This document shows, in pieces, positions 24,290 through 24,596 of a stretch of DNA of 64,000 bases. A program made the translations under genes and the position numbers. The stretch spans positions 124,001 through 188,000 of the forward strand of contig MCFG01000033.1 in assembly GCA_002104895.1 (NCBI GenBank). Direction: 5' to 3'. Below the pieces are notes generated by a model. It was not told the origin of the DNA. It made no database searches and worked only from the letters and a program-made list of their open reading frames with translations. This DNA comes from Anaeromyces robustus (lineage: Eukaryota). Each line of letters opens with the position of its first letter. Position 1 is the first letter of the stretch.

Positions 24290-24596
24290 CCCAAGCATTA
24301 CCGTTGCGCATAATCCTTAATTTTTCCACACATTATAGCTGAATATAATGTCCAATTAAAGGCTCAGTATGCAAGCCAATAATTGTACCATACAAAAAAG
24401 AATGATTTCCTCCGAGAAATCATTATGGGTTCTTTTTTGTAAATTAGTACTAAAAAAAAAAAAAAAACCAAACATTATCATTGCGCATAATGCCCAATTT
24501 GATATAGTACTCATATCAAATTGTACCACCATAGCATCCAAATTTGCAATGCTTGATACCCTCAGGAGTTCGATGGATAAAACTCCATCCCAGGGG
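24290..24596 (-). ncRNA. Candidate structured RNA leader at the LINE 5' end
   Basis: At least seven hairpins in about 300 nt, including two copies of a two-hairpin motif with different stem sequences but retained pairing. Function unknown. Confidence 0.55.

What the first reader, a model, noticed from the sequence alone, without database searches (positions are those of the whole stretch)
24326..24528. Duplicated two-hairpin RNA motif with covariation in the 5' leader of a full-length LINE: candidate new ribozyme or IRES-like element
Seen, in the element sense (minus strand). Copy 1 (24528-24468): UGGUA-CAAUUUGAUAU-GAGUACU-AUAUCAAAUUG-GG-CAUUAU-GCGCAAUG-AUAAUG-UUUGG. Copy 2 (24390-24326): UGGUA-CAAUUA-UU-GGCUU-GCAUACU-GAGCC-UU-UAAUUG-GA-CAUUAU-AUUCAGCU-AUAAUG-UGUGG. 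The upper stem sequence is completely different but still paired, while the 5' UGGUA, the 7-nt GxxUACU loop, the GR linker, the second stem and the 3' UGG are kept. A third partial copy of the second hairpin sits at 24291-24316. G-U pairs work only in the element-sense strand. Established: many non-LTR elements carry 5' self-cleaving ribozymes or translation elements. Inference: a selected RNA structure that I cannot assign to hammerhead, twister or pistol cores.
Basis: partly seen in the sequence, partly recalled or inferred. Interest (0 to 1): 0.85.

Follow-up and report, generated by a model that had tools for sequence, protein, structure and literature searches.

The report
Duplicated hairpins in fungal LINE leader
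A pair of small RNA hairpins is repeated in the untranslated leader of a jumping gene (a LINE) of an anaerobic gut fungus; the repeat is real and its DNA turns up in RNA libraries, but nothing shows that it is a ribozyme, and the one related element I could find lacks it.

Summary
Two 61-65 nt units (24528-24468, 24390-24326, minus strand) and a half-copy (24316-24291) have the stated sequences and fold as stated. Flanks and stems match in 32 of 34 positions, the second loop in 2 of 8, and the replaced top of hairpin 1 pairs in both units. A 13-bp target-site duplication, found only twice in 64 kb, brackets a 5,060-bp insertion (24596 to 19537). A related element has a homologous 5' end. So the motif lies in a genuine 791-nt LINE leader, in Anaeromyces robustus or a near-identical genome. 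This copy is full-length in extent only: its reading frame needs at least three frame changes. No Rfam family matches. The units lie at +69 and +207, not at the 5' end, and the transposed copy kept everything upstream of them, which argues against self-cleavage there. A covariance model of the units finds nothing in the leader of the only relative (50% protein identity). What the two leaders share is a 5'-terminal stem-loop, a structured region rich in upstream AUGs, and an AUG-free A/U-rich spacer before the ORF. Best reading: a lineage-specific, non-catalytic RNA module of the leader, possibly tied to unusual translation. A DNA-level promoter repeat or a neutral palindrome is not excluded.

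The parts
24597..24609 (-). 5' copy of the 13-bp target-site duplication TTATCATTTTATA. Its last 3 nt (ATA) could also be the first 3 nt of the element.
   Evidence: The 13-mer occurs only twice in the window, on either strand. Only 16 of 10079 control 13-mers with one G/C are found anywhere in the 955-nt upstream region.
24555..24599 (-). 5'-terminal stem-loop of the leader (head). ACCC pairs with GGGU around an inner hairpin, with GA...GA in the internal loop. This is the part that is homologous in the relative L017.
   Evidence: -16.3 kcal/mol, z -1.82; 11 consensus pairs, 2 compensatory; best ungapped match of the head in L017 is at its leader start, 25 of 44.
24533..24553 (-). Small hairpin (AGCAUU...GGAUGCU) between the head and unit 1.
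   Evidence: fold of 24533-24600.
24468..24528 (-). Unit 1 of the finding: UGGUA, hairpin 1 (24523-24495; 11-12 bp), GG, hairpin 2 (24492-24473; 6 bp, loop GCGCAAUG), UUUGG.
   Evidence: covariance model 88.1 bits; this copy was used to build the model.
24452..24467 (-). U16 run directly after unit 1.
24391..24441 (-). Long bulged hairpin between the two units (11 bp + 9 bp).
   Evidence: -16.1 kcal/mol, z -4.33, 0 of 200 shuffles as good.
24326..24390 (-). Unit 2 of the finding: UGGUA, hairpin 1 (24385-24353; 6 bp, UU/UU loop, 5 bp), GA, hairpin 2 (24350-24331; loop AUUCAGCU), UGUGG.
   Evidence: pair probabilities 0.83-0.99; 78.1 bits; this copy was used to build the model.
24291..24316 (-). 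Partial third copy (hairpin 2 only; loop GCGCAACG). It is predicted to pair long-range with unit 1's hairpin 2. Its 3' arm GUAAUG is used as a splice donor in the public gene model P0001.
   Evidence: 21.8 bits.
23806..24174 (-). Unstructured, AUG-free A/U-rich spacer of the leader. It includes an A30 run (23920-23891) 85 nt before the start codon.
   Evidence: (0 AUG against 3.6 expected; 2.1% of shuffles).
19745..23805 (-). LINE coding region. The ATG at 23805 is conserved in relatives. It holds an N-terminal ferredoxin-like domain, then APE, then RT, and is interrupted by at least 3 frame changes in this copy.
19537..19573 (-). Poly(A) tail of the element (37 nt).
19524..19536 (-). 3' copy of the target-site duplication, starting at the first base after the tail.

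Best explanation
The motif is a lineage-specific, internally duplicated hairpin module inside the structured part (+45 to about +306) of the 791-nt 5' leader of a LINE of anaerobic gut fungi. The window carries a dead but end-to-end copy.

I read it as a non-catalytic RNA secondary-structure module. Together with the long hairpin between the units and a possible long-range pairing with the third half-copy, it builds a compact folded domain that contains 12 of the 13 upstream AUGs. Behind that domain lies a 369-nt unstructured, AUG-free, A/U-rich spacer with an A30 run, leading to the conserved start codon.

The most likely job of the folded domain is therefore to govern how ribosomes, or the element's own or host RNA-binding proteins, deal with the leader. 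It could act as a barrier or platform, so that initiation on the ORF depends on loading or shunting onto the spacer. That would be IRES-like in effect. It is not self-cleavage.

Shown: the duplication, the fold stability, the location in a genuine LINE leader, the presence of this stretch in the contigs of RNA libraries, the AUG distribution, and the same overall leader layout in a relative.

Inferred: that the hairpins are selected at the RNA level, and everything about ribosomes or proteins.
For: Conservation pattern between the units fits hairpins. Stems and flanks match in 32 of 34 positions, loop 2 in 2 of 8. The hairpin-1 insert is replaced yet pairs in both units (7 of 5000 and 32 of 5000 insert shuffles as stable).

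The element-sense strand folds better in energy for all three copies (-17.0, -17.8 and -6.3 against -11.4, -13.8 and -2.1).

Only 24325-24550 of the leader is significantly structured (z -2.3 to -5.7). The last ~500 nt are not.

Genuine LINE leader: target-site duplication and head homology with L017.

RNA libraries: 20 of 24 listed runs hold at least 72% of the sampled words of 24050-24650, and 11 of them are on record as RNA.

AUG distribution: 13 upstream AUGs, all in the first 422 nt, then 369 nt with none (2.1% of shuffles; 3.8% of background windows). L017 has 18 upstream AUGs, then 244 nt with none (3.8% of shuffles), and also an A-rich tract before its ORF.

A coding reading fails. In the only frame shared by both units, all 5 differing codons of the hairpin-2 segment change the amino acid, and unit 2 runs into a stop inside hairpin 1 (sequence; frames).
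Against: Only two and a half copies in one element carry the pattern. No sister copy could be examined.

The single relative (50% protein identity) has no match to a covariance model of the units at E <= 10 in its leader. Its two module-like stretches do not fold better than shuffles (z -0.86, -0.40).

Hairpins of 6 bp or more starting in a TAC[AT]?AAT motif occur at 52 of 153 control sites in this window.

Z-scores are about equal on both strands, so a DNA-level palindrome fits as well.

All G-U pairs sit at helix ends, where counting them is biased.

The perfect 11-bp inverted repeat of unit 1 is what template-switch mutation produces without any selection (abstracts of PMC8794818 and PMC13100816, seen in the listing).

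The AUG-free spacers are each only p 0.02-0.04.

The RNA-run evidence is word sharing in contigs, not read-level, and an RNA run may hold DNA. No read could be laid.
Confidence: 0.4

Rival explanations
1. DNA-level promoter repeat. The units are repeated binding sites (inverted repeats such as CATTAT-N8-ATAATG and CAATT...AATTG) of the internal RNA polymerase II promoter that a LINE must carry in its leader, comparable to the tandem monomers of mouse L1. The hairpin potential is a by-product of palindromic protein-binding sites.
For: The repeat lies in the first 310 nt of the leader, where LINE internal promoters sit (established knowledge; abstracts of PMC9022269 and PMC6454616 on mouse L1 monomers, listing). 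Hairpin 2 has identical arms and a fixed 8-nt spacer of free sequence, the classic look of a dimer binding site. Fold z-scores are equal on both strands. AGTACT occurs 3 times in the leader out of 15 in 64 kb. The border motifs recur in L017's leader while the interior differs (post hoc).
Against: The spacing in hairpin 1 differs (19 against 23 nt). Its replaced interior pairs in both units, which a binding-site model does not predict. The sequences between the units are unrelated, so this is not a simple head-to-tail monomer array. No promoter data exist.
Confidence: 0.22
2. No function. A segmental duplication inside a dead or fast-evolving leader, plus palindromes made and homogenised by template switching (of a DNA polymerase or the reverse transcriptase) in hairpin-prone 17.5% GC DNA. 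The apparent compensation is mutational, not selected.
For: Unit 1's hairpin 1 is a perfect 11-bp inverted repeat. The motif is absent from the only relative. Short hairpins are frequent by chance here (52 of 153). This copy is already broken in its ORF. Template switching can create and maintain hairpins (abstract of PMC8794818).
Against: Identity is very uneven: 32 of 34 in stems and flanks against 2 of 8 in loop 2. That is hard to obtain by neutral decay of a duplicate. Two different inserts both extend the same stem (joint chance about 1e-5). The stretch is held in the contigs of many RNA libraries.
Confidence: 0.2
3. A new self-cleaving ribozyme. Each unit, or the head plus unit 1, cleaves the LINE transcript.
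For: Ribozymes are known at LINE 5' ends: L1Tc, R2 and Schistosoma elements (abstracts of PMC3185411, PMC3774820 and PMC8501958, listing). The region is structured, and no known family explains it.
Against: No self-cleaving family matches at E <= 10 in either leader. My HDV-like descriptor gives 0 hits at the 5' end of this element and only background-rate hits in L017. Known LINE ribozymes sit at the extreme 5' end, whereas the units are at +69 and +207. The RNA that made this insertion still carried the 68 nt upstream of unit 1 and both units (target-site duplication). Two simple hairpins show no conserved junction or pseudoknot core.
Confidence: 0.03
4. A small protein-coding or upstream ORF. 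The island carries open frames of 103 codons (minus strand) and 92 codons (plus strand), and a public 3-exon gene model (P0001, 65 aa) runs through it. The conserved blocks would then be a repeated peptide.
For: A stop-free run of 103 codons is reached by 1.3% of dinucleotide shuffles. P0001 is encoded exon by exon at 96-100% identity: 95.7% over residues 1-23, 100% for the other two segments. Both units begin with AUG-GU(A/G) in the same frame.
Against: Neither the island ORF nor P0001 has any relative among 5.8 billion clusters. In the shared frame all 5 differing codons change the amino acid, and unit 2 meets a stop after 11 codons. There is no Pfam match for the neighbouring frames tested. 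Palindromes make both strands open at once.
Confidence: 0.03

Closest known systems
Pr77 / L1TcRz at the 5' end of the Trypanosoma cruzi LINE L1Tc (abstracts of PMC3383444 and PMC3185411, seen in the listing)
   Same: A short leader element conserved between related LINEs at the very 5' end. Here the ~44-nt head is homologous between this element and L017. In L1Tc the first 77 nt are both internal promoter and RNA element.
   Different: The finding's units are not at the 5' end and are not conserved in the relative. No HDV-like fold was found at the 5' end. No Rfam HDV-type match. No activity data.
HDV-like ribozyme at the 5' end of R2 elements (abstract of PMC3774820)
   Same: A structured RNA encoded in a non-LTR retrotransposon leader.
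   Different: R2 ribozymes cleave at the element's 5' junction and have the nested double pseudoknot. Here there are two plain hairpins 69 and 207 nt inside the element, and the upstream part was retained on transposition.
Tandem promoter monomers of mouse L1 5'UTRs (abstracts of PMC9022269 and PMC6454616)
   Same: A repeated module in a LINE 5'UTR upstream of a non-repeated tether or spacer and the ORF.
   Different: Mouse monomers are ~200-bp head-to-tail repeats that act as DNA. Here only ~60 nt recur, at 138-nt spacing with unrelated sequence between. The conservation pattern follows base pairing.
Retroviral leader hairpins (dimerisation and splice-donor stem-loops of HIV-1; recalled from memory, not checked in any call)
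   Same: Several short hairpins in the leader of a reverse-transcribed RNA. Hairpin 2 of unit 1 and of the half-copy carries the palindrome UGCGCA, which occurs only at these two places in 64 kb. The half-copy's 3' arm is a GUAAUG splice-donor-like site used by the gene model P0001.
   Different: No evidence for dimerisation or regulated splicing here. Unit 2's loop differs. The resemblance is in how it might work, not in membership.
Viral and cellular IRES elements
   Same: A long leader with many upstream AUGs in a folded domain, followed by an unstructured AUG-free stretch up to the start codon. This layout is seen in both leaders.
   Different: No similarity to any Rfam IRES family. No functional test. 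The A-rich tract, rather than the hairpins, might be the active part. That idea rests on a recalled precedent of A-rich leaders in yeast, which I did not check.

Membership tests
Non-LTR retrotransposon (LINE): the host element | Apurinic-type endonuclease and reverse transcriptase encoded on one strand | tested here: met
   Pfam Exo_endo_phos_2 (1e-06) and RVT_1 (6.8e-25). The RT matches R2 and L1 ORF2p chains in the PDB.
Non-LTR retrotransposon (LINE): the host element | 3' poly(A) tail and target-site duplication bracketing the insertion | tested here: met
   A 37-nt tail. An exact 13-bp duplication occurs only at the two junctions in 64 kb.
Non-LTR retrotransposon (LINE): the host element | Intact ORF (an autonomous, potentially active copy) | tested here: not met
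   tblastn of the intact relative P0010 needs frames -2, -3, -2, -1. ORFs of 408, 154 and 580 aa.
HDV-like self-cleaving ribozymes of LINE 5' ends | Placed at the extreme 5' end, so that cleavage defines the element's first nucleotide | tested here: not met
   The units start at +69 and +207 of the leader defined by the target-site duplication. The upstream 68 nt were retrotransposed with them.
HDV-like self-cleaving ribozymes of LINE 5' ends | Nested double pseudoknot (P1, P1.1, P2, P3, P4) with a catalytic C | tested here: inconclusive
   My own loose descriptor gives 0 hits with P1 at -5 to +6 of this element. Hits elsewhere, and in L017, are at the rate of shuffles. The descriptor is recalled, not a published file.
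Any Rfam self-cleaving ribozyme (hammerhead, twister, pistol, hatchet, HDV and others) | Match to the family covariance model | tested here: not met
   No gathering-score match in 64 kb. In 23800-25000 there are only 7 weak matches at E 0.83-6.6, none to a ribozyme. In L017 1-1100 there are 2 weak unrelated matches.
Any self-cleaving ribozyme | Self-cleavage of the transcript | not testable with these tools
   Needs in-vitro transcription, or read-level 5'-end mapping.
IRES | Drives internal initiation independently of the 5' end | not testable with these tools
   Needs bicistronic or circular reporters. Only indirect support exists: 13 upstream AUGs, then 369 AUG-free nt, and 18 upstream AUGs, then 244 AUG-free nt in L017.
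IRES | Similarity to a described IRES family | tested here: not met
   No Rfam IRES family at E <= 10.
LINE 5'UTR promoter monomers (mouse L1 type) | Head-to-tail tandem repeats that make up the 5'UTR | tested here: inconclusive
   There are 2.4 copies of a ~60-nt module at 138-nt spacing, but the sequence between copies is unrelated.
LINE 5'UTR promoter monomers (mouse L1 type) | Copy number of the repeat varies between element copies; the DNA has promoter activity | not testable with these tools
   No sister copy and no whole genome were available.
Conserved structured RNA (in the sense used for a new Rfam family) | Stems conserved or covarying in independent homologues | tested here: not met
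   A covariance model built from the three copies finds only those copies. There is no hit in L017's leader at E <= 10 with filters off. Only one homologue could be tested.
Kink-turn (box C/D or U4 type): for the 5'-terminal head, not the finding's units | Helix, 3-nt bulge, tandem G-A/A-G pairs, second helix | tested here: inconclusive
   Read by eye. L017 reads CACCCC-GAU-GA-[hairpin]-GA-GGGGUG, which fits. This element reads UACCC-CUGG-GA-U-[hairpin]-U-GA-GGGUA, with a 4-nt bulge. RNAalifold prefers another inner helix. The consensus is recalled from memory.

The most novel reading that the evidence does not exclude
LINEs of anaerobic gut fungi carry an undescribed kind of leader. It would consist of a conserved 5'-terminal kink-turn-like stem-loop, then hairpin modules (of which the finding's duplicated two-hairpin unit is one lineage's version) that form a ribosome-blocking or ribosome-recruiting platform, and then an AUG-free A-rich landing strip. 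On this reading a single-ORF retrotransposon is translated by internal entry or shunting. A rarer alternative is that the module is a new small self-cleaving or protein-guided processing motif.
Probability: 0.1. Interest if true: 0.7.

Novelty: new variant of a known kind. Interest (0 to 1): 0.35.

Why it matters
Little is in print on transposable elements of Neocallimastigomycota. My two full-text searches found no paper on their LINEs or LINE leaders: (12 papers hold the terms, 11 listed; 3 papers), both judged from titles and abstract starts only.

If the module and the leader layout are functional, they would show how a single-ORF LINE in a 17% GC genome is expressed from an 800-900 nt leader full of upstream AUGs. 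They would also give a compact, testable RNA element.

If it is only a lineage-specific duplication, the useful results are these:
- the exact borders of a 5.06-kb LINE copy;
- its conserved 5' terminus;
- a warning that two-copy 'covariation' and short hairpins are weak evidence in very AT-rich DNA.

Tried and rejected
**Searches for more copies**
- No second copy of the island or of the LINE lies in the window, apart from a 45-nt LINE 3' fragment at 63801-63845.
- Pattern scans of viral contigs found nothing. A protein scan there found no relative.
- The metagenome pattern scan gave 16 loci. All are chance matches without the hairpins, in unrelated 25-49% GC DNA. That used the only metagenome scan.
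- The pattern scan of prokaryote genomes found nothing.
- The protein scan of prokaryote genomes gave the one useful relative, L017, plus a 23-residue match, L018, which I disregarded. The genome that holds L017 has no second copy.

**Read-level evidence**
So no transcript ends, strand, splicing or variants could be seen.

**Protein route to sister copies**
- The island ORF and the gene model P0001 have no relatives.

**Identities guessed by eye and dropped**
- I considered tRNA- or SINE-like, 5S-like, U1/U2-like and SRP Alu-like readings of the head and units. No tRNA was found and no Rfam match.

**The internal A30 run**
- I considered that it marks a separate retroposon fused to the LINE. 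I rejected this as the main reading. L017 has an A-rich tract at the same place, and the heads are homologous.

**Hairpin 1 in L017**
- Two hairpins follow TACAAT/TACTAAT there. But 34% of such motifs in the window have one, and the segments fold no better than shuffles.
- MAFFT alignment of the four hairpins was not structure-aware and was not used.

**N-terminal domain of the ORF as an RRM**
- The model shows a beta-alpha-beta-beta-alpha-beta core.
- Foldseek's best E-value is 5.5e-3. In the wide search ACT, RAM, S6 and RRM folds tie at Z 7-9.5. No specific assignment is possible.

**Alternative target-site duplications**
- Those nearer the ORF are only AT-only 9-11-mers that do not abut the tail.
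Full report
**1. What is there**

- Unit 1 (24528-24468): UGGUA, an 11-12 bp hairpin, GG, a 6-bp hairpin with an 8-nt loop, UUUGG.
- Unit 2 (24390-24326): the same flanks and lower stem, a different upper stem that still pairs, the same second stem and a different loop.
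- A copy of the second hairpin alone lies at 24316-24291.

TGGTACAATT is found exactly only at the two units in 64 kb on either strand. CATTAT-N8-ATAATG is found exactly only at the two units, with the half-copy at two mismatches. By my parsing, flanks and stems agree in 32 of 34 positions, loop 1 in 5 of 7 and loop 2 in 2 of 8.

**2. Is it more than chance?**

Each unit folds alone into the two hairpins.
- Unit 1: -17.0 kcal/mol, z -3.45.
- Unit 2: -17.8 kcal/mol, z -2.63.
- In each case 1 of 200 dinucleotide shuffles folds as well.

Keeping the conserved lower stem and shuffling only the replaced insert of hairpin 1 reaches the observed stability in 7 of 5000 (unit 1) and 32 of 5000 (unit 2) trials. 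In my manual structural alignment of the upper stem:
- four pairs differ on both sides and stay paired;
- one becomes U-G;
- one is unchanged;
- none is broken.

The element-sense strand is more stable for all three copies (-17.0, -17.8, -6.3 against -11.4, -13.8, -2.1). Z-scores are nevertheless similar on the two strands.

In the full leader the partition function gives:
- unit 1 hairpin 1: p 0.97;
- unit 2, both hairpins: p 0.83-0.99;
- unit 1 hairpin 2 as a local hairpin: p 0.01. It is paired instead with the half-copy in a long-range duplex (p 0.5-0.9) that encloses the U16 run, the long middle hairpin and unit 2.

The palindrome UGCGCA, shared by those two loops, occurs nowhere else in the window.

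**3. Where it sits**

The window has 17.5% GC. The motif lies in a GC-richer island at 24100-24610.

Downstream on the same strand are an endonuclease ORF (23805-22579) and a reverse-transcriptase ORF (21487-19745). They end in a 37-nt poly(A) run.

The first 13 bases after that tail, TTATCATTTTATA, recur exactly at 24609-24597, abutting the start of the island. They occur nowhere else in the window on either strand. Of 10079 control 13-mers with one G/C, 16 occur anywhere in the 955-nt upstream region. Other candidates are AT-only 9-11-mers that do not abut the tail.

The insertion is therefore 24596 to 19537 (5,060 bp, give or take 3 nt at the 5' end), with a 791-nt leader.

The copy is end-to-end but dead. 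An intact relative aligns in frames -2, -3, -2, -1.

A public three-exon gene model is encoded by the island at 96-100% identity per exon: 95.7% over residues 1-23, 100% for the other two segments. It is annotated 'hypothetical protein BCR32DRAFT_290586 [Anaeromyces robustus]'. This names the organism or a near-identical genome. The model has no relative of its own.

**4. A relative**

Protein relatives of the N-terminal/endonuclease part (45-53% identity) exist in metagenome proteins, in Orpinomyces and in A. robustus. The start MNSSN... is conserved.

A scan of prokaryote genomes found a 4,008-bp contig, binned in a rumen bacterial MAG, that encodes such a LINE (L017). It has 50% identity over residues 12-401 (E 4e-123). 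Its ATG is at 995 and the frame is open for 1009 codons.

Its upstream kilobase has the same layout as ours:
- AT-rich flank;
- an abrupt GC-richer region from about position 75;
- structured windows in the first 400 nt;
- an unstructured AT-rich, A-rich stretch up to the ORF.

The best ungapped match of our 44-nt head anywhere in L017, on either strand, is at position 75, with 25 of 44 identical. Shuffled heads reach 25 somewhere in 91 of 2000 trials, but not at a chosen place.

RNAalifold finds 11 shared pairs, 2 of them compensatory. An alternative manual pairing reads as helix, GA, hairpin, GA, helix in both elements.

So the island is the family's own leader, not a captured sequence. The conserved part is the 5' terminus.

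**5. Is the motif conserved?**

A covariance model built from the three copies, run with filters off over the window and L017, gave:
- the three copies themselves: E 3.7e-19, 1.1e-16, 0.0073;
- the antisense of hairpin 1: E 0.078;
- noise from E 0.27 upward;
- L017's only hit: E 4.7, inside its ORF.

Two stretches of L017's leader look module-like by eye: TACAAT or TACTAAT, a 7-8 bp hairpin, then TGG and a U run. They fold no better than shuffles (z -0.86, -0.40). In this window 52 of 153 TAC[AT]?AAT motifs outside the island are followed by such a hairpin.

The bipartite border pattern TAC[AT]?AAT-N25-55-TGG[AT]?TTTT is rare:
- 1 hit in the window, both strands, and that hit is unit 1;
- 1 hit in 212 kb of other loci;
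- 2 hits in L017, both in its leader in the sense strand.

I designed that pattern after seeing both sequences, so it is only a lead.

On present evidence the two-hairpin unit is lineage-specific.

**6. Ribozyme?**

- No Rfam family reaches its gathering score in the window.
- At E <= 10 the leader gives seven weak, unrelated matches, and L017's leader gives two.
- My own loose HDV-like descriptor finds nothing starting at -5 to +6 of the element. Elsewhere, and in L017, its hits are at the rate of shuffles.
- Known LINE ribozymes lie at the extreme 5' end (abstracts of PMC3185411, PMC3383444, PMC3774820 and PMC8501958, seen only as listing and abstract starts). These units start at +69 and +207.
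- The RNA that made this insertion still had the 68 nt upstream of unit 1. That argues against efficient cleavage at either unit.

I put the ribozyme reading at about 3%.

**7. Coding?**

The island has stop-free runs of 103 codons (minus) and 92 codons (plus) (1.3% of shuffles reach 103). Three things count against coding.
- Palindromes open both strands together.
- In the frame common to both units, all five differing codons of the hairpin-2 segment change the amino acid.
- Unit 2 meets a stop after 11 codons.

**8. Translation**

The leader has 13 AUGs, all in the first 422 nt. The last 369 nt have none, against 3.6 expected (2.1% of shuffles; 3.8% of 1264 AT-rich background windows).

L017 has 18 upstream AUGs, the last 244 nt before the start (3.8% of shuffles).

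In both leaders the AUG-free part is the unstructured one and holds an A-rich tract. Here that tract is an A30 run 85 nt before the start.

This is the layout expected if ribosomes reach the ORF without scanning the folded domain. It is indirect support only, and it is also compatible with a downstream transcription start.

**9. Expression**

Twenty of 24 listed public runs hold at least 72% of the sampled words of 24050-24650. Eleven of them are on record as RNA. They come from 17 coded studies, which may belong to one campaign. These are contigs, not reads, and an RNA run may contain DNA.

**10. Verdict**

- The placement in a LINE leader is supported and sharpened.
- The covariation claim stands only for two copies within one element.
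- The ribozyme reading is unsupported.
- The IRES-like reading stays open.

My best reading, at about 0.4, is a lineage-specific, non-catalytic RNA structure module of the leader's folded domain. Rivals are a repeated DNA-level promoter module (about 0.2) and a neutral duplicated palindrome, perhaps shaped by template switching (about 0.2; abstracts of PMC8794818 and PMC13100816).

On print status: searches for Neocallimastigomycota with LINE and retrotransposon (12 papers hold the terms, 11 listed) and for Anaeromyces robustus with transposable elements (3 papers) showed nothing on these leaders, judged by title and abstract start. Supplements were not read.

Noticed in passing
window 24555-24599 (-) and L017 76-120 (+): The 5'-terminal ~44 nt of the two LINE leaders are homologous (25 of 44, with the best match exactly at L017's leader start). 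They fold into a terminal helix around an inner hairpin whose sequence differs but pairs. By eye the internal loop reads helix / 3-4 nt bulge / GA ... GA / helix, like a kink-turn of box C/D or U4 type. It may be the family's promoter or RNA 'hallmark'.
   Followed up: partly
window 23806-24174 (-); L017 752-994 (+): Both leaders end in an unstructured A/U-rich stretch without any AUG: 369 and 244 nt, with 2.1% and 3.8% of shuffles. It comes after 13 and 18 upstream AUGs in the folded part. Each stretch has an A-rich tract (an A30 run here).
   Followed up: partly
L017 (whole 4008-bp contig): A contig binned in a rumen bacterial MAG (titled as an uncultured Erysipelotrichaceae bacterium) encodes a eukaryotic LINE with an open frame of at least 1009 codons and an AT-rich fungal-type leader. 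It is most likely an anaerobic-fungus contig mis-binned into a bacterial genome.
   Followed up: partly
window 23356-23805 (-): The first ~105 residues of the LINE ORF, upstream of the endonuclease, are predicted as a beta-alpha-beta-beta-alpha-beta (ferredoxin-like) domain, with pLDDT 75-89 in the core. ACT, RAM, ribosomal S6 and RRM folds all tie at Z 7-9.5, so an RNA-binding RRM-like role is possible but not shown.
   Followed up: partly
window 24090-24532 (-): A public gene model (P0001, 65 aa, hypothetical protein of Anaeromyces robustus) is built from three exons inside the LINE leader. Its second intron (GUAAUG at about 24301 to CAG at about 24166) looks like a plausible fungal intron. 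Its first (GUUUUU...CUGAG) does not. Whether the leader is really spliced is unknown.
   Followed up: partly
window 24156, 24446, 24506: The palindrome AGTACT occurs three times within the leader, out of 15 in the whole 64 kb. One lies in the loop of hairpin 1 and one is in UUAGUACUAA just after the U16 run.
   Followed up: no
window 63801-63845: A 45-nt match (88.9%) to the 3' end of the LINE ORF (19798-19841), in a GC-richer patch at the window's edge. It is probably the 3' part of a second copy that runs off the window.
   Followed up: no
window 25541-27433 (-): Several open stretches on the same strand upstream of the insertion (for example 25541-25990, 26095-26313, 27059-27433) look like exons of a host gene with a hydrophobic segment. 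The LINE inserted just downstream of it. There is no Pfam match for 25541-25912.
   Followed up: no
window 19204-19308 (-): Two further A runs of 30 and 34 nt lie within 330 nt downstream of the LINE's own tail on the same strand. Of the 7 A/T runs of 30 nt or more in the window, 4 lie in or beside this element. Older retroposed tails at a preferred landing site are one possibility.
   Followed up: no
window about 38700-41800: A long array of closely similar short repeats: the same 20-mers recur dozens of times in the pattern hits. Simple tri- and hexanucleotide arrays lie near 30100-30340 and 32200-32450.
   Followed up: no
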